Under the pieces are notes generated by a model. The model was not told where the DNA came from, searched no databases, and saw nothing but the letters and a program-made list of their open reading frames with translations. From a virus (Duplodnaviria > Heunggongvirae > Uroviricota > Caudoviricetes), in IMG/VR virus record IMGVR_UViG_2627854098_000004: DNA of 51,192 nt. One strand, given 5' to 3'. The position numbers and the translations under genes were made by a program. Positions within the stretch are counted from its first letter, which is position 1. Each line of letters opens with the position of its first letter. Positions 6,828-44,432 of the stretch are shown in pieces.

Positions 6828-9800
6828 TCAGCTAATCGTGATGCCTGCAGTGGCTTTCTTCATCACAACAACCAGCAAATCGCTGATACTTGCTGTGGGA
6901 TACCAGCCATTTACCCACCATGCTGATACAGAAAACTCCAGCGTCATGTCGCCGCGACCAGCAGGCATATCAATAACACCACTGTAAACCAGCGTATTAT
7001 CCATCGCGGTACGGTTATAAATTTCAGCACCGTTTTTCTTCACTATCAGGCGGCATGACGAATAAGTATCGCTGTTCTCCCGCTCATGTCTGGCACCGCT
7101 GAAAGCCACCGCCGGAATAACAATCTGCCGGTTAAACGGCTGATCGTCATAAACCCTGACGGTAATGGTTCCTGATGGCCAACGCTTCGGTGCACGGGAG
7201 TCACGAGGGAAAGCCTTACCCACTGTTTTAACGAGATCGCCTTCAATCTGGTTTGCAGACAGTTTCCCTCTGATGACACAGTTCTCGTTAATGGTGACAT
7301 TATTGAGCGTGCCGGTATTCGCCGTGATGGCTCCACTGATATCCGCATTGCGGGCTGTCAGCCTGCCATCCGGCGTCAGGGAAAACGTCGGAGGATTGCC
7401 GGATGACGTGATGCTCACCGCAAACAGTCGCTTCAGGAACACGTCGTTCATGAACAGCTGATTCCCCTGCGCCACAAACAGCGGCGTGGTGTTGCCGTTC
7501 TCCGGGGTAATCATCGCAATGCGATCGGCCTGCAGCAGAATGTTACTCAGGGTCTGACCATCAACATCCTCAATCCCCGCACCAATCCCGGCCACATAGG
7601 GAATACCGTTTTTTGTTTTCTGCACCTTCAGCATATACATGGCATTCAGCTCATTGCGCGTGTCTGACTGAACCCGCTGGATTTGCTGTATGGTCACGGC
7701 CTGGTCACCCAGCTTTTTATCCGTGGTCGAGGTAATTTCACTCCCTTTTTTATCCACGTACTGGCGGACCTGTGCTATCTGTCGGGCGTTTTCTGACTGC
7801 CCCTGGCTGACAGTCTGTGAGATTTCACTGCTCACCCGGTCCACTTTCTGGCTCACCTGCGCGATGGCCAGTGTCTGATCCTCATTCTTTTTCGCAACCA
7901 GCTGCGTGAGGCTGTTTTCCGCCTTCCCGATTTTCCGGGTCACTTCTGCGATATCCGTGTCCATCCGCTGACGGATATCTTCTTCCAGTTGCGTGACCTC
8001 CGTACGCAGCGCTGAAGCATCAATGCGCTCTTTCAGTGCCTGACCCAGAAGCGTCTCATCTATCAGCCCCCGGAAAATTTCCAGATACCCTTCACCATCA
8101 TTGCTGGGCTGCCCGCTGGCTTCCACAAAAGCAGATTTTCCCACCAGGTTGACGCTTCGCACGTAAAACCAGAAATCCGTTCCCGGCTTAATCCGGCTCC
8201 CCTGGACAGTCCACTGACTGCCGGTCCCCAGATAACGGGCAGATTTTTCCACCTGTGCTGTGTTCGTGATGCGTTTTTTCTGAGAACCAGAATTCAAACT
8301 GTACCGTCGGGTCATACACCGCAAGACGCGGGACCGCCGTTATCTGAAAATACCCCGGCGTCAGCTCAATGGTGGCGGGTTTTGCAGGTGCGTTAATCCG
8401 GAACGATACCGACGCCGGATCGCCCTGCTGTCCCCGGGCATTTACCGCCCGGACCGTCAGCGTGTAACGCCCCAGCGCCAGCTGCCTGAAGCGGTAAGTG
8501 GTTTCCGCCGTCCGGGCCGTGCTGACCAGCCGCTCACTGCCGTCATCCGCTGTTACGGTCAGACGGAGCAGGAAGCTCACGCCCTTCACCACCTTCGGCG
8601 TGTCCCAGCGCGCCAGCACCTGATATTCCCCGCTGTCTGCGGTGACTTCGGCGGTCAGGTGCTGCACCGCTGGCGGCGTGACACCATTCACCGTGCCGCT
8701 CTGGTCGCCGTCAAAGTGCGCTCCGTTATCCACGATGGCCTCTTTTTCCGGTACATGCTGCACGGCGGTGATGGCATACGTGCCGTCATCGTTCTCACGG
8801 ATACTCACGCAGCGGAACAGGCGCTGGCGCAACGTCGGCAGCTTCAGTCCCCATACGCTGTATTCTGCAACGCCGTCAGGAACACGGCTCACTTTTACCT
8901 TCACGCCGTCGGTGACGGACTGGACCTCCACGCTGACCGGATTCCCCTGTCCGTCAGCCAGGCTTATCAGCGTGGTGCCGGAGGATGGCAGCGTGATTTC
9001 ACGGTCGAGCGTCAGTGTCCGCGTCTGGTTGTTCACCGCCAGCACGCGCCCGCCGATGCTGATCCCCGCATAGTCATCATCACAGATTTCAATGACATCG
9101 CCCGGTACATGGCGAAGCCCTTCTGCACCCACGCTGAAGTCCACGGTCTGCGTTTCCAGCAGCTCCGTTTTAATCAGCCACAGCCCGGCGCGGTGTGCCT
9201 GCCCCCGGCTGGTACAGCCAAAGGCATCCATCTTCGTGACGTTACGACCGTAACGGGCAATGGCCTGCGTGTCCTCCACAAGCTCTGTCGCCGTCTCCCA
9301 GCCGTTATCCGGGTCAATCCAGTTCACCTCAACGGCATTATGGCGGTCTTTCAGGGCGCTGAAGCTGTAGCGGAACGGCGCGCCATCATCCGGCATCACC
9401 ACATTACTGCGGTTATAGGTCCACACCTTATCCGACGGTCGGTCCTGCACGAATGTCAGCGTCTGCCCGTTCCATACCGGCATACAGCGCATCGCCGAGC
9501 AAAAATCACTGAGCACATCCCACGCCTTGCGCTGTGTGGTCAGGTACGCATTACAGGTGATGCGCGGCTCCGTGCCGCCAAAGCCGTCCGGCACTGACTG
9601 GTCGCAATTCTGGCCGATGACATACAGCGCCCATTTATCCACATCTGCCGCACCAAGACGTTTCCCCATGCCGTAGCGCGGATGGGTCAGCATATCCCAC
9701 AGACACCAGGCCATGTTGTTGCTGTATGCTGGCTTAAACGTTCCGTCCCAGATACCGCTGTATTGCCGCGTCTGCGGGTTATAGTTCGACGGCACCTGCA

Positions 9801-10527
9801 GAATGCGCCCGCGAAGATGATAATTACGGCTCACCTGCTGGCTGCCGAACTGCTCCGAGTCCACCTGTACGCCGACCAGTGCCGTGTTCGGGTAGCACTG
9901 TTTCACATCGATGATTTCGGTGTATGACGACCAGAGCGTTTTGTTCTGCAACTGGTCTGTGGTGCTGTCCGGCGTCATCCTGCGCATCCGGATATTAAAC
10001 GGGCGCGGCGGCAGGTTATCCACCACCACCGAGGCCAGATACTGCGACGTGGTTTTGCCCTTAATGGTGATGTCTTTTTCCGTCACCCAGCCACCGTTAC
10101 GTTGAATCTGAACCAGCAGGCGGACTTCCGATGGATTCCTGTCCCCCTTTGAGGTGGTTTCCACCAGTGCCTGCACGCCGAAAGTAAAACGCAGACGGTC
10201 AATGTTTGCCGACGTGATGGTCCGGGTGATCGGCGTGTCATATTTCACTTCTGTACCGAGCACCGTCTCGGAGCCGGAGGATTCAAATCCCTCCGGCGGT
10301 GTCTGCTCCTGCTCACCGGCCCGGAACACCACCGTGACGCCGAATATATTGGTATTCCCCTCACTGTCCAGCACCGGCGTACTGTTCAGCAGCACGCTTT
10401 TTAATCCATCCACCGGACCTTCAACCGGCCCTTCGCTGATGGCGTCTATCACGCTCAGCATCTGGGATGATTTCAGGTTGTCCTTCGCTTCGCGCGGGGT
10501 ATGCCCCTTACTGCTGCCTTTACCCAT
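6828..10527 (-). pseudogene. J: tail tip/host-specificity protein J, split by a frameshift in a homopolymer at 8274-8279
   Basis: ORFs 8188..10527 (lambda J-like N-terminal 740 aa) and 6828..8324 (J C-terminal part) overlap; the reading frames join at the plus-strand T6 run 8274-8279 (A6 in the coding sense); removing one base restores [17 protein letters not shown]. Confidence 0.8.
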
Positions 10528-10540
10528 TCCTCATGCTCCA

Positions 10541-10569
10541 TAAACGATAAAACCGCCCGGAGGCGGTTT
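10541..10569 (-). terminator. hairpin with following U-run in the 60-nt I-J spacer (possible attenuator)
   Basis: On the - strand AAACCGCC-TCCG-GGCGGTTT followed by TATCGTTTATGG, between the I stop (10588) and the J start (10527). Confidence 0.3.
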
Positions 10570-10587
10570 CACATAAAACATTTTGCA

Positions 10588-11260
10588 TCAGCGACCAATC
10601 ACCACAACCTGACCACCATCCCCTTCGTCTGCCGTGCTGATCTCCTGAGAAACCACGCGTGACCCCACGCGCATTTCACCGTACAGAACCGGCAGAACAT
10701 TGCCCTGGGCAACCATGTTATCCAGTGAGGAGAAATAGGTGTTCTGTTTGCCGTTATCCGTTGTCTGTGTACGGGGAGTTCTGGCTTTCGGTGCCAGCAT
10801 CTGCGCCACACCACCGAGCACCATACTGGCACCGAGAGAAAACAGGATGCCGGTCATACCACCGGCCCCAATGGCTGCCCCCCATGCTGCAAGGGTGGCT
10901 CCGGCGGTAAAGAATGATCCGGCAATGGCGGCAGCCCCCAGGACAATCTGGAATACGCCACCTGACTTGGCCCCGGCGACTCTGGGAACAATATGAATCA
11001 CAGCGCCATCAGGCAGAGTCTCATGTAACTGCGCCGTTAACCCGGACGTGCTGACGTCCCGCCCGGCAATCCGTACCTGATACCAGCCGTCGCTCAGTTT
11101 CTGACGAAACGCCGGGAGCTGTGTGGCCAGCGCCCGAATGGCTTCAGCCCCCGTTTTCACACGAAGGTCGAGTGCGGCGGCCAAATCGTTGTAAATCCCC
11201 GTAAAGGCAGATGCGCGCCATGCCCGGTGACGCCAGAGGGAGTGTGTGCGTCGCTGCCAT
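10588..11260 (-). pseudogene. I: tail tip assembly protein I with a +1 insertion about 29 codons in (near 11172)
   Basis: I-body ORF 10588..11184 (lambda I-like); the I N-terminus MAATHTLPLASPGMARICLYGDLQRFGRR lies in the K frame starting at 11260; gene span is 673 nt against 672 expected. Confidence 0.6.
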
Positions 11261-11902
11261 TTGTCGGTATAACCTCTCTCGTTTGCTCAGTTGTTCAGGA
11301 ATATGGTGCAGCAGCTCGCCATCACCACAGTAAATGGCGGCATGATTCGGCACCGATGAACCAAAACAGCACAGCAGCACATCGCCCGGTTGTGCTGATG
11401 ACAACGGCACCTGATACAGCCCTGTGGCCTCCAGATTATCCAGATAGAGATTCTGGCCGTTACGCCACCAGTCATCCTCACGATAAAAGTCCGGCATCTC
11501 AATCCCCGCCAGATGATAAGCATCCCGGAACAGTGTGTAACAGTCCGTCACACCGTGCTCAAAGCGCCGCCCGGTGAGATGCGGCACACAGCGGAACTTA
11601 TGAATCGTCCCCCGGCAGACCAGCCACCACGGCAAATCACTCTGCACCTGCAGCCGCCGGTCGGCCTCACTCAGCCAGGGCAGACCACCGGGGTGGCTGT
11701 GGACCAGCGCCACAATCTCACCCTGCATTTCTGCCTGCAGCCAGTCTTCCGGCGACATACGGAAATACGCCTCCGGCTCACCGGAGATATTCACGCAGGG
11801 GAAATATCTTTCCCCCTCCGGCGTGCTTACCACGAAGCCGCACGACTCCGCTGGCGCACATCGCCGGGCGTGCGCCAGAATCGCTGATTCTGTCTGTGTC
11901 AT
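11144..11902 (-). CDS. K: tail tip assembly protein K (MPN/JAMM HSHPGG motif plus NlpC/P60-like Cys-His-His); C-terminus altered by frameshift
   Basis: 252-aa ORF starting 5 nt after the L stop; a lambda-type frame would end at 11159-11157; here an extra base near 11271 shifts the C-terminal about 40 residues into the I-start frame. Confidence 0.65.
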   Translation of the reverse strand: MTQTESAILAHARRCAPAESCGFVVSTPEGERYFPCVNISGEPEAYFRMSPEDWLQAEMQGEIVALVHSHPGGLPWLSEADRRLQVQSDLPWWLVCRGTIHKFRCVPHLTGRRFEHGVTDCYTLFRDAYHLAGIEMPDFYREDDWWRNGQNLYLDNLEATGLYQVPLSSAQPGDVLLCCFGSSVPNHAAIYCGDGELLHHIPEQLSKRERLYRQMAATHTLPLASPGMARICLYGDLQRFGRRTRPSCENGG

Positions 11903-11907
11903 GGGAT

Positions 11908-12606
11908 TTACTGCGAAAGTTTGTTAATGGAAAGGAAGCCGCCAAAGTTGCCGACGTTATTGCGGAACTTACAACCGCTCAGGCATTTGCTGCATTTATC
12001 CTTCGTGATATCGGACGTTGGCTGGTCATATTCATCCGCGACAGCCGGACCGCTATAACCGCACTCGTCACCGCGATAGGTCCAGGTGCAGGTGTTGGCC
12101 AGCATGATACGTCCCGGAAAAACAGCGCCATCCGTTTCCGTCGGCGTGGACAGTACAAAGGAGGCACTCACCGCGCTCAGTTCGCTGCACTGCTCAATGC
12201 GCCAGCGGCTGATCACCTCCTGCTCCGGATCGGCGTCACTGTTTCCGTTGACGAAGTTCACCGCATCCAGAAAACGGGCGTAAACCTTACGCCGGACCAC
12301 CGTTCCGCCGACCAGACTCTGCAGATCTTCCGCCATCCCTGTGACCATACCGTACAGGTTAGAAACCGTCAGCGTGGGGCGCGTACTGGTGCCTTTGCCA
12401 TTCAGTTCAAAACCGCTCCCCTGAATGGGATACGGCTGATACTGTCGCCCCTGCCAGGTGACCGGCTCACCTTTTTCGTTCTGCTCATTACAGAAAAAAT
12501 AACGTTCTCCACCGACCTCTGTCAGGTCGATTTCCCAGAGCACCACGCTGGCCGACTGCTCCGCACGGGTGCATTCATTCAGTGTTTCCTGCCGGATATC
12601 CTGCAT
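11908..12606 (-). CDS. L: tail tip assembly protein L
   Basis: 232 aa; near-identical to lambda gpL; ATGA overlap with the M stop. Confidence 0.9.
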   Translation of the reverse strand: MQDIRQETLNECTRAEQSASVVLWEIDLTEVGGERYFFCNEQNEKGEPVTWQGRQYQPYPIQGSGFELNGKGTSTRPTLTVSNLYGMVTGMAEDLQSLVGGTVVRRKVYARFLDAVNFVNGNSDADPEQEVISRWRIEQCSELSAVSASFVLSTPTETDGAVFPGRIMLANTCTWTYRGDECGYSGPAVADEYDQPTSDITKDKCSKCLSGCKFRNNVGNFGGFLSINKLSQ

Positions 12607-12935
12607 CAGTTCACCACCTGTTCAAACTCTGCGCTGAACTCAACACGCAGCATACTGACCCGCGACGACCATTTTGCGCAGGTCACCTTTATCTGCCGCC
12701 ACTCATAAGGCGGCGTCCACAGAAAGGCTTTCCAGCCCCCGTGCTCTTCCAGAAACAACTCCAGTACCGTGGCCTCCTCACGGGGGACAGAAAGCGTCAC
12801 GCTGTACGTTTTCAGGTTGGCATTCAGCCCGGCAGGCGCTCGCTGGGAATAGCCATCACCAAAGCGCACCTTTCTTACAGAAGGGACCGAAGCCACATCC
12901 ATACCGGGTTTCACTTTCCAGCGGAAGGTCTTCAT
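12606..12935 (-). CDS. M: tail tip assembly protein M
   Basis: 109 aa; near-identical to lambda gpM. Confidence 0.9.
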   Translation of the reverse strand: MKTFRWKVKPGMDVASVPSVRKVRFGDGYSQRAPAGLNANLKTYSVTLSVPREEATVLELFLEEHGGWKAFLWTPPYEWRQIKVTCAKWSSRVSMLRVEFSAEFEQVVN

Positions 12936-15496
12936 CGTCCACCTCCGGAGAACAGGCCACCATCACGCATCTGTGTCTGAATTTCATCACGGGCACCCTT
13001 GCGGGCCATGTCATACACTGCTTTCATCATCTGTGGACCTGGCAGACCATTCGTACCGTCGTTCTGAATCACCACGTTGTTGTTCTGCTCAAACCTGATA
13101 CCCTCTGAACGCCGCATTTGCGCCGGACTTCCGGTGCCACCGACATAACCGCCGGTGGCATAGCCGCGCATCAGCCGGTAGAGATTTCCCACGCCAATCC
13201 GGCTGGTTGCCTCCTTCGTGAAGACAAATTCACCACGGTGAACAATCCCCGCTGGCTCATATTTGCCGCCGGTTCCCGTAAATCCTCCGGTTGCAAAATG
13301 GAATTTCGCCGCAGCGGCCTGAATGGCTGTACCGCCTGACGCGGATGCGCCGCCACCAACAGCCCCGCCAATGGCGCTGCCGATACTCCCGACAATCCCC
13401 ACCATTGCCTGCTTAAGCAGAATTTCTGTCATCATGGACAGCACGGAACGGGTGAAGCTGCGCCAGTTCTGCTCACTGCCGGTCAGCATCGCCGCCATAT
13501 TCTGTGCAATACCATCAAAGGTCTGCGTGGCTGCACTTTTAACCTGCGACATACTGTCCGTGGCGCTCTCTTCCCACTCACTCCAGCCGGACTTCAGGCC
13601 TGCCATCCAGTTCCCGCGAAGCTGGTCTTCAGCCGCCCAGGTCTTTTTCTGCTCTGACATGACGTTATTCAGCGCCAGCGGATTATCGCCATACTGTTCC
13701 TTCAGGCGCTGTTCTGTGGCTTCCCGCGCTGCCTGCCGGTCAGTCAGCCCCCGGTTTTTCGCATCAATGGCGGCCCGTTTTGCCCGTTGCTGCTGTGCGA
13801 ATTTATCCGCCTGCTGCGCCAGCGCGTTCAGGCGCTCCTGATACGTAACCTTGTCGCCAAGTGCAGCCAGCTGGCGTTTGTACTCCAGCGTCTCATCTTT
13901 ATGCGCCAGCAGGGATTTCTCCTGTGCAGACAGCTGGCGACGTTGCGCCGCCTCCTCCAGTACCGCGAACTGACTCTCCGCCTTCCACAAATCCCGGCGC
14001 TGCTGGCTGATTTTCTCATTCGCTCCGGCATGCTTCTCCAGCGTCCGGAGTTCTGCCTGAAGCGTCAGCAGGGCAGCATGAGCACTGTCTTCCTGACGAT
14101 CGCCCGCAGACACCTTCACGCCGGACTGTTTCGGCGTTTTTCAGCGTCGCTTCATTAATCCTTTTTCGCCGCCGCCATCAGCGTGTTGTAATCCGCCTGC
14201 AGGATTTTCCCGTCTTTCAGTGCCTTATTCAGTTCTTCCTGACGGGCGGTATATTTCTCCAGCGGCGTCTGCAGCCGTTCGTAAGCCTTCTGCGCCTCTT
14301 CGGTATATTTCAGCCGTGACGCTTCGGTATCGCTCTGCTGCTGCGCATTTTTGTCCTGTTGAGTCTGCTGCTCAGCCTTCTTTCGGGCGGCTTCAAGCGC
14401 AAGACGGGCCTTTTCACGATCATCCCAGTAACGCGCCCGCGCTTCATCGTTAACAAAATAATCATCCTTGCGCAGATTCCAGATGTCGTCTGCTTTCTTA
14501 AACGCAGCCTCTGCCTTAATCAGCATCTCCTGCGCGGTATCAGGACGACCAATATCCAGCACCGCATCCCACATGGATTTGAATGCCCGCGCTGTCCTGT
14601 CTGCCCAGGTCTCCAGCGTGCCCATGTTCTCTTTCAGGCGGCGGGTCTGGTCATCAAACCCTTTCGTCGCGGCCTCGTTCGCCGCCTGCAATGCCCCGGC
14701 CTCTTCGCCGGAACGCTGCAACTGAGCAACATACGCAATCTGCTCCGCCGTCACGTTATGGAACTGGCGCGCCATCGCTGTCAGCCCCGACGTCGGGTCA
14801 GTGGTCAGCTTCCCGAAGGCTTCAGCGACCTTGTCCACCTCCACGCCGGATGCAGAGGAGAAACGCGCCACACTCTGGCTGATGGACGCAATCTGAGCCT
14901 CACCGCTTACCCCCGCCTTAACCAGTGCGCTGAGTGACTCGCTGGTCTGGTTAAACGTCAGCCCTGCCGCCTGCCCGGCTCTGGACAGGACCAGCATGCG
15001 ATCTGCCGTCAGACCCGACTGATTGCCGGAAAGGACCAGCGTTTTGTTGAAATCGGACAGGGTTGAGTTGCCCTGATACCAGGCATACGCCAGCGCACCG
15101 GTCGCCACCGCCAGCGAGGTGGCCCCCACCATCGGCAGGGTGATCGCACCGGCAAGCCCCCTGAACATGGGGATCATCCCGCCGAAGGAGTCCTTAACCT
15201 GACCACCCTGTTGCAGCAGGATCAGCCACGGACTTTGCCCGCCTGCAAGCTGCGTGGCCACGTCGGTGAACTGTGCAGGCAGCATACGCATGGCGGCTTT
15301 ATACTGCCCGACGGAAATCCCCGCTTTCTGTGCAGCCAGCGCCTGTCGGCCTCAGCGACTGTTCAACGACTGCCGCTGTTTTTTTCGCATCACTTTCCGT
15401 ACCGGAAAAATGACGCCTGACTCTGGCCATCTGCTCGTCAAATCTGGCCGCATCCAGACTTAAATCAACGACCAGATCGCCTACCGGTTCAGCCAT
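12932..15496 (-). pseudogene. H: tape measure protein H, broken into three ORFs by three +1 insertions
   Basis: ORFs 15299..15496 (H N-terminus, 65 aa), 14155..15291 (378 aa) and 12932..14119 (395 aa) are colinear with lambda gpH (853 aa); span is 2565 nt against 2562 expected; first and last ORFs share a frame, the middle 1.2 kb is +1. Confidence 0.8.
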
Positions 15497-26219: not shown

Positions 26220-26897
26220 ATGTCCATCATTTTTAATGGACACTATCGTATGAAACACCGGACCTGGATCACTGAAGCTTTACGTCTTCACTTTGAAGAA
26301 CATTTACCCCGGGTTGTGGCCGGGCGTCGCCTGGGTGTACCAAAATCAACAGTTTGTAGTATGTTCGTGCGCTTTCGGAGAGCTGGCCTTTCGTGGCCTT
26401 TGCCCGCAGGCATGTCGGAGCAGGAACTTGATGCCTGCCTTTACGGACAATTTTCCACGGTACCAGTCGTACGTCCTGAAAGCACCGTTATATCCGAAGC
26501 CCCCGTGGTAAAAAAACGTCCCCGGCGGCCCAACTTCCCTTATGAGTTTAAAATCGCCTTAGTGGAGCAGTCACTGCAGCCCGGAGCCTGTGTGGCGCAG
26601 ATCGCCCGGGAAAACGGAATCAACGATAACCTGCTCTTCAACTGGCGCCATCAATACCGGAAAGGTGGCCTGCTGCCTTCCGGAAAAAATATGCCGGCAC
26701 TGCTTCCCGTGACGTTAACGCCGGAGCCGGATAATAAAATCCCGGCCCCCGCACAGGAACCAGAGCAGATAAATACACCGTCCGACAGTCTGTGTTGTGA
26801 GCTGGTTCTGCCGGCCGGAACTCTCAGGCTTAAAGGTAAACTGACGCCGGCGTTATTACAGACACTTATCCGCGAAATAAAAGGGAGCAGCCACTGA
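26220..26897 (+). CDS. IS66-family accessory protein TnpA (start uncertain)
   Basis: ORF has an IS66 orf1-like C-terminal part (PNFPYEFKIALVEQSL...LLFNWRHQYRKG); the N-terminal extension may not be translated. Confidence 0.6.
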   Translation: MSIIFNGHYRMKHRTWITEALRLHFEEHLPRVVAGRRLGVPKSTVCSMFVRFRRAGLSWPLPAGMSEQELDACLYGQFSTVPVVRPESTVISEAPVVKKRPRRPNFPYEFKIALVEQSLQPGACVAQIARENGINDNLLFNWRHQYRKGGLLPSGKNMPALLPVTLTPEPDNKIPAPAQEPEQINTPSDSLCCELVLPAGTLRLKGKLTPALLQTLIREIKGSSH

Positions 26898-27244
26898 TGA
26901 TATCTCTCCCTGCAGGTTCGCGTATCTGGCTGGTTGCAGGTATCACCGATATGCGAAATGGCTTTAACGGCCTGGCATCAAAAGTTCAGAACGTCCTGAA
27001 GGATGACCCGTTCTCCGGACACCTGTTCATCTTCCGCGGACGCCGGGGTGACCAGATAAAAGTGTTGTGGGCTGACAGTGACGGACTGTGCCTCTTCACC
27101 AAACGCCTGGAGCGGGGCCGCTTCGTCTGGCCAGTCACCCGTGACGGCAAGGTGCACCTTACTCCGGCTCAGTTATCCATGCTTCTTGAAGGTATCAACT
27201 GGAAGCACCCGAAACGAACGGAACGCGCTGGAATCCGCATATAA
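26897..27244 (+). CDS. IS66-family TnpB
   Basis: 115 aa; [27 protein letters not shown] signature. Confidence 0.85.
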   Translation: MISLPAGSRIWLVAGITDMRNGFNGLASKVQNVLKDDPFSGHLFIFRGRRGDQIKVLWADSDGLCLFTKRLERGRFVWPVTRDGKVHLTPAQLSMLLEGINWKHPKRTERAGIRI

Positions 27245-27263
27245 CCCGTTGTAAAGTGAGGAT

Positions 27264-28835
27264 ATGGACACCTCACTTGCTCATGAGAACGCCCGCCTGC
27301 GGGCACTGTTGCAGACGCAACAGGACACCATCCGCCAGATGGCTGAATACAACCGCCTGCTCTCACAGCGGGTGGCGGCTTATGCTTCCGAAATCAACCG
27401 GCTGAAGGCGCTGGTTGCGAAACTGCAACGTATGCAGTTCGGTAAAAGCTCAGAAAAACTTCGTGCAAAAACCGAACGGCAGATACAGGAAGCACAGGAG
27501 CGAATCAGCGCACTTCAGGAAGAAATGGCGGAAACGCTGGGTGAGCAATATGACCCGGTACTGCCATCCGCCCTGCGCCAGTCTTCAGCCCGTAAACCGT
27601 TACCGGCCTCACTTCCCCGTGAAACCCGGGTTATCCGGCCGGAAGAGGAATGCTGTCCTGCCTGTGGTGGTGAACTCAGTTCTCTGGGATGTGATGTGTC
27701 AGAGCAACTGGAGCTTATCAGCAGCGCCTTTAAGGTTATCGAAACACAACGTCCGAAACAGGCCTGTTGCCGGTGCGACCATATCGTGCAGGCACCAGTA
27801 CCTTCAAAACCCATTGCACGCAGTTATGCCGGAGCGGGGCTTCTGGCCCATGTTGTCACCGGGAAATATGCAGACCATCTGCCGTTATACCGCCAGTCAG
27901 AAATATACCGTCGTCAGGGAGTGGAGCTGAGCCGTGCCACACTGGGGCGCTGGACAGGTGCTGTTGCTGAACTGCTGGAGCCGCTGTATGACGTCCTGCG
28001 CCAGTATGTGCTGATGCCCGGTAAAGTCCATGCTGATGATATCCCCGTCCCGGTCCAGGAGCCGGGCAGCGGTAAAACCCGGACAGCCCGGCTGTGGGTC
28101 TACGTCCGTGATGACCGTAACGCCGGTTCACAGATGCCCCCGGCGGTCTGGTTCGCGTACAGTCCGGACCGGAAAGGTATCCATCCACAAAATCACCTGG
28201 CCGGTTACAGCGGTGTGCTTCAGGCCGATGCTTACGGTGGTTACCGGGCGTTATACGAATCCGGCAGAATAACGGAAGCCGCGTGTATGGCTCATGCCCG
28301 GAGAAAAATCCACGATGTGCATGCAAGAGCGCCCACCTACATCACCACGGAAGCCCTGCAGCGTATCGGTGAACTGTATGCCATCGAGGCAGAGGTCCGG
28401 GGCTGTTCAGCAGAACAGCGTCTGGCGGCAAGAAAAGCCAGAGCCGCGCCACTGATGCAGTCACTGTATGACTGGATACAGCAACAGATGAAAACACTGT
28501 CGCGTCACTCAGATACGGCAAAAGCGTTCGCATACCTGCTGAAACAGTGGGATGCACTGAACGTGTACTGCAGTAATGGCTGGGTGGAAATCGACAACAA
28601 CATCGCAGAGAACGCCTTACGGGGAGTGGCCGTAGGCCGGAAAAACTGGATGTTCGCGGGTTCCGACAGCGGTGGTGAACATGCGGCGGTGTTGTACTCG
28701 CTGATCGGCACATGCCGTCTGAACAATGTGGAGCCAGAAAAGTGGCTGCGTTACGTCATTGAACATATCCAGGACTGGCCGGCAAACCGGGTACGCGATC
28801 TGTTGCCCTGGAAAGTTGATCTGAGCTCTCAGTAA
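27264..28835 (+). CDS. IS66-family transposase TnpC
   Basis: 523 aa; zinc-ribbon CxxC...CxxC and IS66 transposase core. Confidence 0.85.
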
Positions 28836-30501: not shown

Positions 30502-30795
30502 ATGAAAAAAATGTTGTTTTCTGCCGCTCTGGCAATGCTTATTACAGGATGTGCTCAACAGACGTTTACTGTTGGAAACAAACCTACAGCAGTAACACCA
30601 AAGGAAACCATCACCCATCATTTCTTCGTTTCGGGAATTGGGCAGAAGAAAACTGTCGATGCAGCAAAAATTTGTGGTGGTGCAGAAAATGTTGTTAAAA
30701 CAGAAACCCAGCAAACATTCGTAAATGGATTGCTCGGTTTTATTACTTTAGGCATTTATACTCCGCTGGAAGCGCGTGTGTATTGCTCACAATAA
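30502..30795 (+). CDS. bor: Bor lipoprotein (serum-resistance family)
   Basis: Start MKKMLFSAALAMLITGCAQQ; near-identical to lambda Bor; opposite strand to the lysis genes as in lambda. Confidence 0.9.
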   Translation: MKKMLFSAALAMLITGCAQQTFTVGNKPTAVTPKETITHHFFVSGIGQKKTVDAAKICGGAENVVKTETQQTFVNGLLGFITLGIYTPLEARVYCSQ

Positions 30796-32585: not shown

Positions 32586-33668
32586 ATGAAAAAATTAACA
32601 GTGGCAATTTCTGCTGTAGCTGCATCAGTACTGATGGCGATGTCTGCTCAGGCAGCTGAAATTTATAATAAAGACAGTAACAAGCTGGATCTATACGGGA
32701 AAGTTAATGCCAAGCACTACTTCTCCTCTAATGATGCAGATGATGGTGATACTACTTATGCCCGTCTTGGCTTCAAAGGTGAAACCCAAATCAACGATCA
32801 ACTGACTGGTTTCGGTCAGTGGGAATATGAATTCAAAGGCAACCGTGCTGAATCTCAAGGTTCTTCCAAAGACAAAACCCGTCTTGCATTTGCAGGCCTG
32901 AAATTTGGTGATTACGGCTCAATCGATTACGGCCGTAACTACGGTGTAGCATACGACATCGGTGCGTGGACTGACGTTCTGCCAGAATTCGGTGGTGATA
33001 CCTGGACCCAAACAGATGTGTTCATGACTGGTCGCACTACTGGTGTTGCAACTTATCGTAACAACGACTTCTTTGGTCTGGTCGATGGCCTGAACTTTGC
33101 TGCTCAGTATCAGGGTAAAAATGACCGCACTGACGTAACTGAAGCCAATGGTGATGGTTTCGGTTTCTCCACTACTTATGAGTATGAAGGATTCGGCGTG
33201 GGTGCAACCTATGCTAAATCAGATCGCACTGACGGTCAGGTCGCCTATGGTAAGAGCAAATTCAATGCCTCCGGCAAAAATGCGGAAGTATGGGCTGCAG
33301 GCCTGAAATATGATGCGAACAATATCTATCTGGCTACCACATATTCTGAAACTCAGAATATGACCGTTTTTGGTAATAACCATATTGCAAACAAAGCACA
33401 AAACTTTGAAGCAGTAGCACAATATCAGTTTGACTTCGGTCTGCGTCCATCTGTTGCTTACCTTCAGTCAAAAGGTAAAGACCTTGGTGTTCATGGTGAC
33501 CGAGACTTAGTCAAGTATGTCGATGTCGGTGCTACTTACTACTTTAATAAAAACATGTCCACTTTTGTTGATTACAAAATCAACTTAATTGACGATAGTA
33601 AGTTTACCAAAACAGCTGGTATTGATACCGACGACATCGTCGCTGTAGGTCTGGTTTATCAGTTCTAA
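32586..33668 (+). CDS. phage-borne general porin (OmpC/OmpF/NmpC-Lc family)
   Basis: ORF 32526..33668; start ATG 32586 with RBS AAGGG; signal peptide ...AMSAQA then AEIYNKD, C-terminal F; between Q and S on the opposite strand, as for nmpC in DLP12. Confidence 0.9.
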
Positions 33669-37575: not shown

Positions 37576-38470
37576 AAATCCACCCCGTAAATCCAGTCAG
37601 TGTTTGTCAGGTCGAGTTTTGGTTTGCAGGCTGTCACACCTGCCTGTTGCTTGTTACGGTTGATTTCGAGCTGGGTCCACTTGTCGCGGAGTTTGGCCGG
37701 GCTCAGCACGTTACCGGACCAGAAGTTGTCCTGGCATGCCCAGCGGAACAGTACACACATGTCGCGATGGTTACGTCCGTCACGTTCACGCATCAGGCGG
37801 ATATCGTTAGCCCACCCTGCAAAATTCGGTTTTCTGGCTGATGGCGCGATGGTCTTCACCATGTCAAACATCCATTCTGCGGCGGTCAGGTCTTCTGCTG
37901 TCCCCCACTTGCTGCCGCTCTGAATTGCAGCATCCGGTTTCACCACAGAAAGGTCGTTTTCTGGCTGGTCAGAGGATTCGCCAGAATTCTCTGACGAATA
38001 ATCTTTTCTTTTTCTTTTGTAATAGTGTCTTTTGTGTCCCCCTGTTTTGAGGGATAGCAATCCCCCAATTTGAGGGATGTTTTATCCCTCGTTTTAGGGG
38101 ATTTTCCCTCGTTTTGAGGGATACACCATTCTGAGATGTTTTTATTTGGTCCAAACATGCCGCCTTGCTGCTTGATAATATTCATTCTGACGAGTTCTAA
38201 CTTGGCTTCATTGCACCGTTTGACGGGTAACTTTGTAATCTCGCTAAGTTGAGAATCGGTGATTCTGTCCATTGGTTTATTCCATCCATAGGTTTTACGC
38301 AGAATGGCAAGCAGCACTTTAAACTGTCGCTTGGTCAGATCTGCGCCTGAATAAGCCTCAAGCAGCATATTTGATAGTCTGGCGTAACCATCATCGAGAT
38401 CTGCCACATTACGCTCCTGTTTGGCAAAGTTACCTCTGCAGAAGTTGAGTATTTTTGCTGTATTTGTCAT
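37572..38470 (-). pseudogene. O: replication initiator O, split by a 1-nt deletion in the AT-rich ori segment
   Basis: ORFs 37940..38470 (O N-terminus) and 37572..38060 (O C-terminus) overlap; total 899 nt against 900 expected; the frame change maps to the plus-strand T5 run 38009-38013. Confidence 0.75.
38041..38120. repeat. ori iterons (four roughly 19-bp O-binding repeats) inside the O gene
   Basis: On the - strand four tandem copies of TCCCTCAAAACGAGGGA-like repeats, followed by an A/T-rich segment at 37990-38040. Confidence 0.85.
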
Positions 38471-41611: not shown

Positions 41612-41709
41612 GATCACCCAACCACATAAGCTGTGGGATGCAATGCCGAAGCAACCGTCTCAGGAGGAGCTTCGAGATTGCATCGCCAAAGTTTATTCGG
41701 GAGGAATCC

Positions 41710-41798
41710 ATGTCCAGAAAAACAGAATTTAAAGGCACCGCAGCTTCTCGCCGTAGAGCTCGTCGCGCAAATCTGCAAAGTCAGGAGGCGATCAGCTC
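41710..41798 (+). pseudogene. N: N antiterminator, 5' fragment (codons 1-29), interrupted by IS66
   Basis: ATG 41710 with RBS GGAGGAA; arginine-rich N-terminus MSRKTEFKGTAASRRRARRA; reading frame continues at 44249 after the IS and one copy of the target duplication. Confidence 0.55.
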
Positions 41799-41835
41799 GT
41801 AAGCGTGCAGCAAGAACCGTATTGACGGGGATGTG

Positions 41836-43374
41836 TTATTCAGTCGGCAGTGCTACGCGCCAGGGGAGCAGTTCGCCGACCCGGTTTATCGGCCAGTCGG
41901 CTATGACGTCAAGGACATAGCGGAGGTAGCTTTCTGGCTCCACTCCGTTCAGTTTGCACGTCCCGATCAGGCTGTACAGCAGCGCTCCCCGCTCTCCTCC
42001 ATGATCCGAACCGAAGAACAGGTAGTTTTTGCGGCCCAGACTGACCATCCGCAACGCATTTTCAGCGATGTTATTGTCCGCCTCAGCCCAGCCATCATCT
42101 GCATAGTACGTCAGCGCCGGCCACTGGTTCAGGGCGTATGCGAACGCTTTCGCCAGTTCTGAGTGTCGCGACAGGGTTTTCATCTTTTCACGCAGCCAGC
42201 TTTCCAGGGATTTCAGCAGCGGTTTCGTTTTCAACTGACGTTCGGCAAGGCGCTGCTCCGCCGTCATTCCCCTTATCTCTGCCTCGATGGCGTACAGTTC
42301 GCCGATCCGTTTCAGCGCTTCCTCCGTCAGGGCTGACGGGGTGCGAACGTGCACATCGTGGATTTTACGGCGGGCGTGAGCCCAACAGGCGGCTTCCGTT
42401 ATCCGGCCATCCCGGTACAGCTCGTTGAACCCGGCGTATGCATCCGCCTGCAGTACACCACTGAACCCCGCAAGATGGGTCTGCGGATGGATGCCTTTTC
42501 TGTCCGGGCTGTAAGCGAACCACACCGCCGGCGCCAGCGTTGACCCGGCGTTACGGTCGTCACGAACGTAGGTCCATAACCGCCCGGTCTTCGTTTTCTT
42601 ATTGCCTGGCAACAGCACCGGGACAGGCGTGTCATCAGCATGGAGCTTACCGTCAGTCAGCACATAGCCATGAAGCGCCTCTTCCAGCGGAGACAGCAGC
42701 CGGCAGCATGCATCCACCCAGCCCGACAGCAGTGAACGGCTCAGCTCCACACCTTGCCGGCCGTATATTTCTGACTGGCGATACAGCGGGGTGTGCTCTG
42801 CATACTTCGAGGTCAGCACGCGGGCCAGCAGCCCCGGTCCGGCGATACCCCGCTCGATGGGCCGCGAAGGTGCAGGTGCCTGCACGATGGCATCGCACTG
42901 AGTACAGGCATGTTTTTCCCGTACCGTCCGGATAACCCGGAAGGCGCTACGCATCAACTCCAGCTGTTCGGCGGTATCCTCGCCCAGATAGCTCAGTGAA
43001 CCGCCGCAGTTCGGGCAGCACGGCGCCGCAGGCAACAGTCGCTTTTCGTCACGGGGTAGTGATTCAGGGAACGGCTTACGGGTGCGGGTCTGACGCAACG
43101 GACGCTGTACTGCCGGGTCATACACCCTACCAGTCAGCGTATCGCTCTCTTTCTGAAGCCGGTTCAGATCGGCTTCCATTTGTGCGATACGGCGGGAGAC
43201 TTTTTCGGAACGACTGCCGAAGTTCATCCGGCGGAGTTTATCCAGCTGCGCCTGCAGATGGTCTATTTCGCGCTCCCGGTTGCTCAGCTTTTCCTGCAGG
43301 GCGTGGATCAGCGCTTCCTGTTCGGCCAGGCGCTGTTTCAGCAGGAAGATGTCGTCAGAAGAGATGTCGTTCAT
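41836..43374 (-). CDS. IS66-family transposase TnpC
   Basis: 512 aa; IS66 transposase with zinc-ribbon CxxC motifs. Confidence 0.85.
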
Positions 43375-43423
43375 AAGCCCGTATTTTACCGGGCTTATTC
43401 TGTGACAACCAGGATAAAGAGAT

Positions 43424-43771
43424 TTACAGCATGGTCAGGGAGGTCAGCAGCCGCTTAGGCTGTCGCCAGTCGATACCTTCCAGCAGCATCGCCAGCTGCG
43501 CCTGTGTAAGGAACACTTTGCCATCACGGGCTGACGGCCAGGCGAAGCGCCCACGCTCCAGCCGTTTGGTCAGGAGGCACAGTCCGTCACCGGTGGACCA
43601 CAGCAGTTTAACCTGACTGCCGCTGCGGCCCCGGAAAATGAAAACATGGCCGGACATGGGATCGTCTTTCAGCGCCGTCTGTACTTTCGCAGCCAGGCCG
43701 TTGAAGCCATTTCTCATATCAGTGATACCGGCAACCAGCCAAATTTTGGTCCCGGAAGGTAACGGGATCAT
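43424..43771 (-). CDS. IS66-family TnpB
   Basis: 115 aa; [27 protein letters not shown]. Confidence 0.85.
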
Positions 43772-44169
43772 CGCTTCAGTTCCTGTATCAGCAGAGTCAG
43801 GAGCTTTTCGCTGACATTGCCATTGAAGCGGAGCGTCCCGTGCCGGAACGTTACCTCACAGCTGATACTGAGGGTTTCCGGGTCCTCTGCGAGCGATTCT
43901 GGCTGTTCGGCAGCTGCATCGAGAGTCACAGGAAGTAGCTGGGGGCTCTCTGAAGAAGGTAATAGCAGCTTTCCCTCGCGCCATTGTTGTCGCCATTTGA
44001 ACAACAGATTGGCGTTAATGCCATTTTCAAGAGCAAGTTTTGAGATGGATATCCCGGGTTCACAGGAGGCAGCAACGAGCTGCTGTTTAAATTCGGGAGG
44101 ATAATTAGGGCAGCCTTTTCGCCTGCCGGGAGTCACATTTTTCTGCATATCTGACACTTTGGTTCCCAC
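43768..44169 (-). CDS. IS66-family TnpA
   Basis: 133 aa; ATGA-type overlap with tnpB. Confidence 0.8.
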   Translation of the reverse strand: MGTKVSDMQKNVTPGRRKGCPNYPPEFKQQLVAASCEPGISISKLALENGINANLLFKWRQQWREGKLLLPSSESPQLLPVTLDAAAEQPESLAEDPETLSISCEVTFRHGTLRFNGNVSEKLLTLLIQELKR

Positions 44170-44240
44170 TACTTATTTGGTGGACACCACTTTGTCTAAT
44201 TCGTCAGATTCTGACCAGACGGTTCAGGCTGTACGCTTAC

Positions 44241-44432
44241 ATCAGCTCCGACAAGCTACACAGGCCAACCCCTTCACGAGTGGTCTTGCAATGCAAGCTC
44301 AAACCAGCAATGAGAGCAGAAGTGATAACTCTGACAACGTTGACCAGAAAATATGAAGGTTCAACTTGTCTTCCGAACGTAGCTCTTTACGCGGCAGGCT
44401 ACCGGAAATCAAAACAACTGACGGCGAGATGA
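44241..44432 (+). pseudogene. N: N antiterminator, 3' fragment
   Basis: In-frame continuation of the 41710 ORF once the IS and one target-duplication copy are removed; stop TGA at 44430-44432; reconstructed N is 90 aa. Confidence 0.5.

What the first reader, a model, noticed from the sequence alone, without database searches (positions are those of the whole stretch)
11144..11310. Two extra nucleotides in the K/I overlap change the K C-terminus and break I
A lambda-type K frame would stop at 11159-11157 and a lambda-type I would begin at the ATG at 11260, in different frames. Here the I N-terminus (MAATHTLPLASPGMARICLYGDLQRFGRR) is in the K frame and the I body (10588-11184) is +1. Single extra bases near 11271 and 11172 explain this. 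The ORF also shows that K is open for 48 codons upstream of the Met that lines up with the start of a 199-aa K, suggesting the real K is about 250 aa and includes the full MPN domain.
Basis: partly seen in the sequence, partly recalled or inferred. Interest (0 to 1): 0.4.

Follow-up and report, generated by a model that had tools for sequence, protein, structure and literature searches.

The report
Probable sequencing errors in prophage K/I
The two extra bases that scramble the lambda-type tail genes K and I are really in this record, but they occur in only one old 454-sequenced E. coli genome and are most likely sequencing or finishing errors, so this is ordinary.

Summary
Compared with lambda, the window has one extra T at 11271-11272 and one extra C at 11172. 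K runs into the I frame and then into a third frame. I loses its first 29 codons.

The window is the E. coli APEC IMT5155 chromosome (CP005930). That genome was sequenced with 454 only, at roughly 25x by my arithmetic, with gaps closed by PCR and Sanger reads. NCBI's PGAP annotation already marks K as frameshifted.

Neither insertion occurs in any of about 4,100 other complete E. coli genomes that carry this region, nor in IMG/VR. The exact products are on record only in CP005930. They appear only in IMT5155, in both of its lambdoid prophages, inside a 6.5 kb repeat.

The near-clonal strain DE17 carries the same defective prophage with H, K, I, J and O intact. Outside one recombinant patch, the window shows no substitutions against DE17 over about 46 kb, and no private substitutions inside the patch. 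It has eight private single-base indels. A 50 kb core region shows the same pattern and includes a frameshifted core gene. Deleting the two bases restores K (247 aa) and I (223 aa) exactly.

Most likely explanation: assembly or finishing errors (about 0.88).

The parts
11271..11272 (-). Insertion 1. A TT pair where lambda and all other E. coli copies examined have a single T (GG[T]TATACC). It lies at K codon 211 and shifts K into the I reading frame.
   Evidence: The 61-mer around it is matched at 99% identity or more only by CP005930, out of 4,174 records with the region. In IMG/VR it matches only IMT5155's own second prophage.
11172..11172 (-). Insertion 2. An extra C (GCA[C]TCGACC), not in a homopolymer. 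It lies at I codon 30 and K-frame codon ~244. It shifts I out of frame and moves the K reading into a third frame.
   Evidence: Its 61-mer is matched at 99% identity or more only by CP005930, out of 4,066 records. IMG/VR: with a control k-mer lacking the insertion found in at least 120 contigs.
11144..11902 (-). K as it reads in the record: a 252-aa ORF. Residues 1-210 are normal K (Prok-JAB 3-104, NlpC/P60 from 111). Then comes LYRQ, then the first 29 residues of I, then TRPSCENGG. The stop is at 11146-11144.
   Evidence: PGAP annotates 11157-11902 as 'C40 family peptidase, frameshifted'.
11759..11902 (-). The 48-codon N-terminal part of K that is absent from the historic 199-aa lambda K. It encodes the first half of the JAB/MPN domain, including Glu19 of the JAMM motif. 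The start ATG lies 5 nt after the L stop.
   Evidence: J02459 lacks the G that corresponds to window 11768. Re-sequenced lambda has the 247-aa ORF.
11157..11159 (-). Position of the lambda-type K stop codon (TGA). It is out of frame here. The overlapping GTG at 11160-11158 is the start PGAP uses for its 190-aa I.
11144..11260 (-). I start codon (ATG 11260-11258) and the detached 38-codon stub MAATHTLPLASPGMARICLYGDLQRFGRR+TRPSCENGG. It carries the first strand of the ubiquitin-like domain of I.
10588..11184 (-). Body of I: a 198-aa ORF that matches only PF06805 profile positions 21-83. Its C-terminal portion corresponds to the part of gpI resolved in the lambda virion and is intact.
   Evidence: and 30 (residues 135-223 resolved in the virion).
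8855..15325 (.). A 6.5 kb stretch covering H 3' part, M, L, K, I and J 5' half. It is identical to the second lambdoid prophage of the same assembly (CP005930 ~4,918,000-4,926,000), including both K/I insertions. The only exceptions are the window-only insertions at 14156 and 14136.
11137..15232 (.). A patch holding all 99 substitutions between the window and the orthologous prophage of the clonal strain DE17. Inside it the window matches IMT5155's own second prophage. It is either a gene conversion or an assembly collapse.
14136..14156 (-). Two more private +1 insertions in the tape-measure gene H, at 14136 (extra C) and 14155/14156 (A to AA). They are present in this copy only.
   Evidence: PGAP marks H as 'frameshifted'.
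15350..15351 (-). A third private +1 insertion in H (G to GG on the gene strand), 119 nt beyond the edge of the patch.
8274..8279 (-). A private +1 insertion in an A5 run (now A6) in J. It splits J into 779-aa and 444-aa ORFs.
38003..38008 (.). A private -1 deletion in a T run that frameshifts the replication gene O. O is intact in DE17.

Best explanation
The two extra bases are most likely errors in the deposited sequence of E. coli APEC IMT5155 (CP005930), not mutations in the organism.

Shown:
- The region is the K/I gene pair of a lambda-type prophage tail module.
- In intact relatives K is a 247-aa assembly protein with a JAB/MPN metalloprotease domain plus an NlpC/P60 cysteine peptidase domain. 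It is not found in the virion.
- In intact relatives I is a 223-aa protein. It has an N-terminal ubiquitin-like domain ending in Gly-Gly, then a glycine-rich hydrophobic stretch, then a C-terminal plug that sits as a trimer in the tail-tip lumen.
- The last 103 nt of K overlap the first 34 codons of I in a different frame. One spurious base therefore damages K, and the next damages both K and I.

Inferred:
- The stretch lies in a 6.5 kb repeat shared by the strain's two lambdoid prophages. Reads of about 400 nt could not resolve such a repeat.
- It was probably assembled as one consensus, or closed by PCR and direct Sanger sequencing, and that sequence was used for both copies. This would explain why both copies carry the same two errors.
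- The organism most probably has intact K and I reading frames, like its clonal relative DE17, inside a prophage that is already defective for other, real reasons (IS elements in N and near cos).
For: 1. Source and method. The window is 100% identical to NZ_CP005930.1. That genome was made from 454 GS Junior/FLX Titanium reads assembled with Newbler 2.7. The reported read totals (about 53 + 47 + 26 Mb) give roughly 25x by my arithmetic. Gaps were closed by PCR and direct Sanger sequencing, and the methods mention no Illumina data (PMC4232414).

2. The insertions are private to this assembly.
- Only this record matches the 61-mers around each insertion at 99% identity or more, out of 4,174 and 4,066 E. 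coli records with the region.
- In IMG/VR the insertion k-mers hit one contig, which is IMT5155's own second prophage. The control k-mer hits at least 120 contigs.
- The exact 204-aa K and 198-aa I products exist only at two places in CP005930, in a collection of 153 billion gene positions. The neighbouring L protein is listed in 13,974 blocks of that collection.

3. Both prophage copies in the assembly carry the same two insertions, inside a 6.5 kb otherwise identical repeat.

4. The differences from a clonal relative are indels only.
- DE17 carries the same prophage with the same IS insertions, and with H, K, I, J and O intact.
- Over 49.9 kb, all 99 substitutions fall in one patch (11137-15232), and that patch equals IMT5155's other prophage. 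The remaining ~45.8 kb has 0 substitutions.
- The window has 8 IMT5155-private 1-nt indels across those 49.9 kb, four of them inside the patch.
- Within the patch there are no private substitutions against L016/L017-type alleles. The one site flagged against the panel (13611) is shared with VTB96815v (L003). There are 4 private +1 insertions.
- Prophage 2 adds three more private homopolymer indels, breaking Q and Z.
- A 49.8 kb core-genome region has 0 substitutions and 2 A-run indels. One of them frameshifts an ABC-transporter ATPase only in IMT5155.
- From general knowledge, real mutation gives many more substitutions than indels. 454 errors are the reverse.

5. Deleting the two bases restores K and I exactly as in relative L017.
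Against: - The two K/I insertions are not in long homopolymers. One is T to TT and the other is a C between A and T. They are therefore not the textbook 454 error. A consensus built from both repeat copies would have had about double coverage.
- The prophage is genuinely defective: N is split by an IS66-family element, and this is shared with DE17. Its tail genes are under no selection, so real frameshifts would be tolerated.
- Identical changes in both copies could also arise by real gene conversion between the prophages.
- No reads were available, so the error itself was not observed. I also could not reconstruct how exactly it was made. The insertions do not coincide with sites where the two expected alleles differ.
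Confidence: 0.88

Rival explanations
1. The insertions are real, recent mutations in a decaying prophage. After N was knocked out by an IS element, the late genes drifted. K and I each acquired a +1 insertion in one prophage. A gene conversion of about 4-6.5 kb then copied the damaged segment into the other prophage. K would be made with a chimeric C-terminus and an incomplete NlpC/P60 domain. I would be made, if at all, from an internal start and would lack the first strand of its ubiquitin-like domain. Neither prophage could then build tail tips.
For: - The prophage is truly defective. N::IS66 and a second IS between the lysis genes and nu1 are both shared with DE17.
- The zapA frameshift in this prophage and the integrase frameshift in prophage 2 are shared with DE17, so they are real.
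- A 99-substitution patch that matches the strain's own second prophage could be a gene conversion.
- The K/I insertions are not typical homopolymer errors.
Against: - There are zero private substitutions alongside 8 private indels in this prophage. The same indel-only pattern appears in prophage 2 and in a core region, where a conserved gene is frameshifted only in IMT5155.
- All six private changes in the tail module are +1 insertions, with no deletions.
- Five of them cluster within 4.2 kb, exactly where the assembly has an unresolvable repeat.
- DE17 and VTB96815v carry the same long-defective prophage and have kept H, K, I and J intact.
- No other genome shares either insertion.
Confidence: 0.1
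2. The arrangement is functional recoding. Either the inserted base creates a deliberate K-I fusion, or the site is decoded by programmed ribosomal frameshifting, as for G/GT upstream in the same operon.
For: - The I frame is -1 relative to K, so insertion 1 alone would fuse K residues 1-210 to full-length I.
- Iyer et al. 2006 mention rare prophages in which I is fused to the K JAB domain or to J.
Against: - The second insertion, 100 nt further on, ends the fused frame after only 29 I codons, so no K-I fusion results.
- By my own reading of the sequence returned, there is no X XXY YYZ slippery heptamer around 11272.
- The arrangement is found in no other genome, so nothing indicates selection for it.
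Confidence: 0.02

Closest known systems
Bacteriophage lambda genes K and I (gpK/TAPK and gpI/TAPI), as in re-sequenced lambda PV340536.1 and OM418625.1
   Same: - Same gene order: L, K, I, J.
- After removing two bases, K is 196/199 identical to lambda K over the shared part, and I is 222/223 identical to lambda I.
- Same Prok-JAB + NlpC/P60 architecture for K and the same PF06805 domain for I.
- Same 103-nt K/I overlap.
   Different: The record has two extra bases. They give K a 42-residue foreign C-terminus and detach the first 29 codons of I.
RefSeq/PGAP annotation of this very locus (L282_RS20660 and its twin L282_RS24715, 'C40 family peptidase, frameshifted')
   Same: PGAP already models K as a pseudogene running from the ATG at 11902 to the lambda-type stop at 11157, that is, with the frameshifts.
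   Different: PGAP does not flag I. It starts I at the GTG downstream of insertion 2 (190 aa, WP_000847666.1), so the damage to the I N-terminus is invisible in the annotation.
The historic 199-aa K of lambda J02459 (Sanger 1982 reference)
   Same: This is another single-base discrepancy in a deposited sequence that changes the apparent K protein. J02459 lacks a G (window equivalent 11768) 10 nt upstream of the Met49 ATG. That closes the upstream frame.
   Different: That discrepancy is a missing base at the 5' end and hid the JAB domain. Here the bases are extra, at the 3' end. I did not establish whether the J02459 difference is an error or a strain difference. All other lambda records I examined have the G.
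454 pyrosequencing consensus indel errors, and finishing errors in repeats
   Same: The differences from a clonal genome are indels only, mostly in A/T runs, and they include frameshifts in core genes. The assembly was made from 454 reads with PCR/Sanger gap closure.
   Different: The two K/I insertions and the one at 14136 are not in homopolymers of 3 or more bases. They resemble low-quality Sanger or mixed-template calls more than flowgram miscalls. I could not verify this without reads.
TAPK/TAPI ubiquitin-like processing model (Iyer, Burroughs and Aravind 2006, PMC1779556)
   Same: The model describes K as JAB + NlpC/P60 and I as an N-terminal ubiquitin-like beta-grasp ending in Gly. It predicts that K's JAB domain cleaves I after that Gly. 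The motifs are present here: E19, H68-S-H70-x7-S78-xx-D81, C121 and H187 in K, and G100-G101 in I.
   Different: Nothing new is added here. The paper also notes NlpC/P60-only 'K' versions as probable degenerate or mis-modelled forms.

Membership tests
Lambda gpK / TAPK (tail-tip assembly peptidase, Prok-JAB + NlpC/P60) | Complete Prok-JAB (MPN) domain with the JAMM motif E...H-S/T-H-x7-S-xx-D | tested here: met
   PF14464 matches residues 3-104, profile positions 3-112 of 114, E = 6.9e-14. E19 and H68-S-H70-x7-S78-xx-D81 are present. The 199-aa form matches only profile positions 63-112 and falls below the Pfam cut-off.
Lambda gpK / TAPK (tail-tip assembly peptidase, Prok-JAB + NlpC/P60) | Complete NlpC/P60 domain | tested here: not met
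   As the record reads, PF00877 matches profile positions 1-98 of 105 (residues 111-218). Intact K matches 1-105 (residues 111-224). The candidate catalytic residues C121 and H187 lie upstream of the insertion. The feature is met after in-silico removal of base 11272.
Lambda gpK / TAPK (tail-tip assembly peptidase, Prok-JAB + NlpC/P60) | Gene sits between L and I in a lambda-type tail module and starts just after the L stop | tested here: met
   L is at 11908-12606 and the K ATG is at 11902. The order M-L-K-I-J is seen.
Lambda gpI / TAPI (PF06805: ubiquitin-like domain + Gly-rich segment + C-terminal plug) | Whole PF06805 ubiquitin-like domain encoded in one reading frame | tested here: not met
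   Lambda I matches profile positions 2-83 (residues 14-97). The window's I ORF matches only positions 21-83. The missing first strand lies in the K frame upstream of insertion 2. The feature is met after removal of base 11172.
Lambda gpI / TAPI (PF06805: ubiquitin-like domain + Gly-rich segment + C-terminal plug) | C-terminal part that is built into the tail tip (residues ~134-223) is intact, and the Gly-Gly at the end of the ubiquitin-like domain is present | tested here: met
   The restored I is 222/223 identical to lambda I. It matches PDB 8iyk chain I over residues 1-223. G100-G101 are present. Virion structures resolve residues 135-223 and 134-222.
Sequencing / assembly artefact (454 consensus or finishing error in a repeat) | The change is private to one assembly and absent from all independent sequences of the same element | tested here: met
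Sequencing / assembly artefact (454 consensus or finishing error in a repeat) | The assembly shows an indel-only difference spectrum against a clonal relative, including in selected core genes | tested here: met
   - Prophage 1: 0 substitutions outside the patch, and 8 private indels across the 49.9 kb compared.
- Prophage 2: 5 indels.
- Core 49.8 kb: 0 substitutions and 2 homopolymer indels, one of which frameshifts an ABC-transporter ATPase.
Sequencing / assembly artefact (454 consensus or finishing error in a repeat) | The error sits in a context prone to the platform's errors (a homopolymer run) | tested here: inconclusive
   Five of the private indels elsewhere are in A/T runs of 5 or more bases, and two more are in A3-A4 runs. 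The K/I insertions are T to TT and a non-homopolymer C. They do lie in a 6.5 kb intragenomic repeat.
Sequencing / assembly artefact (454 consensus or finishing error in a repeat) | Raw reads or independent resequencing contradict the consensus | not testable with these tools
   No reads of IMT5155 and no second assembly were available. The only records with these products are CP005930 itself.
Programmed frameshift / natural K-I fusion | A slippery site, a continuous fused frame, and conservation in relatives | tested here: not met
   The fused frame ends after 29 I codons. No other genome has the arrangement. By my own reading of the sequence, there is no X XXY YYZ heptamer at 11260-11290.

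The most novel reading that the evidence does not exclude
Both insertions are real in strain IMT5155. They arose in one lambdoid prophage and were copied into the other by a kilobase-scale gene conversion. The strain would then carry two tail modules with an identically damaged K/I pair. K would carry the first beta-strand of I's ubiquitin-like domain as a foreign tail. I would lack that strand.
Probability: 0.1. Interest if true: 0.15.

Novelty: not a real feature. Interest (0 to 1): 0.06.

Why it matters
It matters little for biology. At most it would be a routine pseudogenisation in a prophage that is already dead.

The practical value is as a caution in three respects:
- The IMT5155 reference genome, a widely used avian pathogenic E. 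coli (APEC) model strain, carries single-base indels. These create false pseudogenes in both prophages (H, K, I, J, O, Q, Z) and in at least one core gene. Gene-content or pseudogene comparisons that use it should be treated with care.
- The 199-aa lambda K that is still copied into new annotations hides half of a JAB metalloprotease domain.
- The widely propagated 190-aa model of I cuts off the first strand of its ubiquitin-like domain. That matters to anyone testing the proposed K-cleaves-I mechanism.

Tried and rejected
- I looked for an independent assembly or resequencing of IMT5155 through exact-protein look-ups. Only CP005930 itself came back.
- I tested whether the insertions coincide with sites where the two expected prophage alleles differ (DE17 copy 1 against copy 2). 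That would fit a flow-space consensus of mixed reads. They do not. The nearest allele difference to 11172 is 8 nt away, and by my own flow-order reasoning it would not desynchronise the 454 flows. There is no difference within 90 nt of 11272. I dropped this as a specific mechanism.
- I considered that a mixed PCR template could have produced the calls. The natural 1-nt polymorphism at 11909 between the two prophage types would put Sanger traces out of phase. This is plausible but untestable here, so I mention it only as speculation.
- I considered a programmed frameshift or a K-I fusion and rejected it (see the rival explanations).
- The extra A at 11909, in the L-K spacer, first looked like another private insertion. 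It is a natural polymorphism shared by many relatives.
- A literature search for a published note on the missing G in J02459 found nothing usable. The BEN2908 comparison paper says nothing about IMT5155 sequence quality.
- I did not run structure prediction or large protein searches. The family assignments were unambiguous from Pfam and PDB.

Full report
**What is in the sequence**

On the minus strand, the window carries a lambda-type tail module in the order H, M, L, K, I, J. Alignment of 11100-11340 with lambda J02459 shows exactly two single-base insertions. One is a T in GG[T]TATACC at 11272/11271. The other is a C in GCA[C]TCGACC at 11172.

In lambda the last 103 nt of K overlap the first 34 codons of I in another frame. 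Here the first insertion, at K codon 211, moves K into the I frame. K therefore reads LYRQ and then the first 29 residues of I. The second insertion moves that reading into the third frame, which stops at 11146-11144. It also detaches the body of I (ORF 10588-11184) from its start at 11260.

**Effect on the proteins as the record reads**

- Intact K (247 aa) has a full Prok-JAB domain and a full NlpC/P60 domain, with profile positions 1-105 matching residues 111-224. The window's K loses the last seven profile positions and the natural 37-residue tail.
- Lambda I matches Pfam PF06805 from residue 14 to 97. The window's I ORF matches only profile positions 21-83. The first strand of the ubiquitin-like domain described by Iyer et al. 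2006 is therefore in the wrong frame.
- Two solved homologues (9l9p_A and 25vf_9) align from lambda I residues 11-19 onward. This confirms that the stretch upstream of the insertion is coding.
- "Changes the K C-terminus and breaks I" is a correct reading of the record.

**Where the window comes from**

The window is 100% identical to the chromosome of E. coli APEC IMT5155, NZ_CP005930.1. PGAP already annotates K there as "C40 family peptidase, frameshifted". It also marks H and J as frameshifted.

The genome paper states that the sequence came from two 454 shotgun runs and one 8 kb paired-end run, assembled with Newbler 2.7. The reported read totals give roughly 25x by my arithmetic. Contig gaps were closed by PCR and direct Sanger sequencing (PMC4232414).

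**The insertions are private to this assembly**

- Of 4,174 E. coli records that contain the 61-mer region around insertion 1, only CP005930 matches at 99% identity or more. The same holds for insertion 2 among 4,066 records.
- In IMG/VR each insertion-bearing k-mer hits a single contig, which is IMT5155's own second prophage. The insertion-free control hits at least 120 contigs.
- The exact 204-aa K and 198-aa I products occur only at two places in CP005930. The adjacent L protein is listed in 13,974 blocks of the same collection.

**Both prophages of the strain carry them**

IMT5155 has a second lambdoid prophage that spans the origin of the record. Window 8855-15325 is identical to it, including both K/I insertions. 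The only differences are two further insertions, at 14156 and 14136, found only in the window copy. A 6.5 kb exact repeat cannot be resolved by 400-nt reads. A consensus or gap-fill sequence used for both copies would duplicate any error in it.

**Comparison with a clonal relative**

Strain DE17 (NZ_CP045206.1) carries the same prophage. It has the same IS66-family element splitting N, the same ISCro1 between the lysis genes and nu1, and the same zapA frameshift. Its H (853 aa), K (247 aa), I, J (1232 aa) and O are all intact.

Over 49.9 kb aligned with the window:
- All 99 substitutions fall in 11137-15232. In that patch the window equals IMT5155's other prophage and the L016/L017 alleles.
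- The remaining ~45.8 kb has no substitutions.
- The window has eight private single-base indels.
  - Insertions (+1): 8274-8279 in J, 11172, 11271/2, 14136, 14155/6, and 15350/1 in H.
  - Deletions (-1): 26134 (an A8 run) and 38008 (a T run, in gene O).

Inside the patch there are no private substitutions against close alleles. The one site flagged against the panel (13611) is shared with VTB96815v (L003). There are four private insertions.

Prophage 2 against DE17's prophage 2 shows five indels: the two in K/I, an A8-to-A7 change that breaks Q, and two added A's that break Z.

A 49.8 kb core-genome region shows no substitutions and two A-run indels. One of these frameshifts an ABC-transporter ATPase in IMT5155 only.

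**Interpretation**

Two genomes with no substitution differences over roughly 95 kb, but more than a dozen single-base indels, all of which disable genes in only one of them, show the signature of 454-type consensus error. This is not the signature of mutation. From general knowledge, spontaneous substitutions outnumber small indels about ten to one in E. coli, and selection would remove frameshifts in core genes.

Five of the private insertions cluster within 4.2 kb, in or next to the unresolvable repeat, and they are not in long homopolymers. I infer that they come from the finishing of that repeat rather than from flowgram miscalls. I could not reconstruct the exact route. Removing the two bases restores K and I exactly as in relative L017.

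I put the artefact explanation at about 0.88. Real private mutations spread by gene conversion get about 0.10. That is not negligible, because the prophage is genuinely dead and the two insertions are atypical 454 errors. Functional recoding gets about 0.02. The fused frame ends after 29 codons, and nothing is conserved.

**The K N-terminus**

The ORF starts 5 nt after the L stop. The 48 extra codons supply profile positions 3-62 of the JAB domain and Glu19 of the JAMM motif E...H68-S-H70-x7-S78-xx-D81.

This is already known:
- Iyer et al. 2006 describe K as JAB + NlpC/P60.
- PGAP aa throughout.
- A 2025 lambda record annotates 744 nt.

The 199-aa K traces to J02459, which lacks a G (window equivalent 11768) 10 nt upstream of Met49. 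Re-sequenced lambda left arms have the G and a 247-aa ORF.

**Context from the literature**

gpK is required for tail assembly but is not found in virions. Only gpI residues ~134-223 are seen in the tail-tip lumen, as a trimer holding the C-terminus of gpH. This is compatible with the untested proposal that K's JAB domain removes I's ubiquitin-like domain after the Gly-Gly at 100-101.

**Verdict**

The feature itself is most probably not real, and what is real about K is already known. Interest is low.

Noticed in passing
window 11768 (equivalent position in lambda J02459 about 14,265); L002 about 1691: The 1982 lambda reference J02459 lacks one G (GGAGGC-TATTTC) 10 nt upstream of the ATG of its 199-aa K. 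The window, DE17/VTB96815v, L017 and re-sequenced lambda (OM418625, PV340536) all have the G, which opens a 247-aa K starting right after L. Some new lambda records still copy the 199-aa annotation even though their own sequence has the long ORF.
   Followed up: partly
window 10588-11160 (PGAP I, WP_000847666.1) versus 10588-11260: PGAP and several phage annotators start I at the GTG that overlaps the K stop, giving 190 aa. Other gene callers give 210 aa (Met14), and the classical annotation gives 223 aa. Pfam PF06805 matches from residue 14, and solved homologues align from residues 11-19. The 190-aa model therefore removes the first strand of the ubiquitin-like domain.
   Followed up: partly
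window 8855-15325, and CP005930 about 4,918,300-4,926,000 (L023/L030): The two lambdoid prophages of IMT5155 are identical over 6.5 kb. Against the clonal strain DE17, the window's copy shows a 99-substitution patch (11137-15232) that matches IMT5155's other prophage. This is either a recent intragenomic gene conversion or a collapse of the two copies during assembly.
   Followed up: partly
window 8274-8279, 14136, 14155-14156, 15350-15351, 26134, 38008: These are six further IMT5155-private single-base indels in this prophage. They break J, H (three times) and O, and one is intergenic near nu1. None of them is accompanied by a private substitution.
   Followed up: yes
CP005930 16,686; 4,928,847; 4,928,911; 4,875,792; 4,857,353 (L031, L030, L158): Outside the window, the same assembly has private A-run indels. 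They frameshift Q and Z of the second prophage and a core ABC-transporter ATPase. The core region is otherwise identical to DE17 over 49.8 kb. This suggests the IMT5155 reference needs polishing.
   Followed up: yes
window about 41677-44432 and about 26220-28835: The antiterminator gene N is split by an IS66-family element. An ISCro1 element sits between the lysis cassette and the small terminase gene. Both are shared with DE17, so the prophage was already defective in the common ancestor, yet its tail genes stay intact in DE17 and VTB96815v.
   Followed up: partly
window 30502-30795 and 32586-33668: The prophage carries iss (an increased-serum-survival lipoprotein) downstream of the lysis genes, and an ompC-like porin gene between the Q-type antiterminator gene quuD and the lysis genes. 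Both are cargo genes relevant to APEC virulence and phage resistance.
   Followed up: no
window 11907-11909: The spacer between the L stop and the K start is naturally polymorphic in length. It is 4 or 5 nt (GTAATCCCATG versus GTAAATCCCATG) among otherwise very similar prophages.
   Followed up: yes
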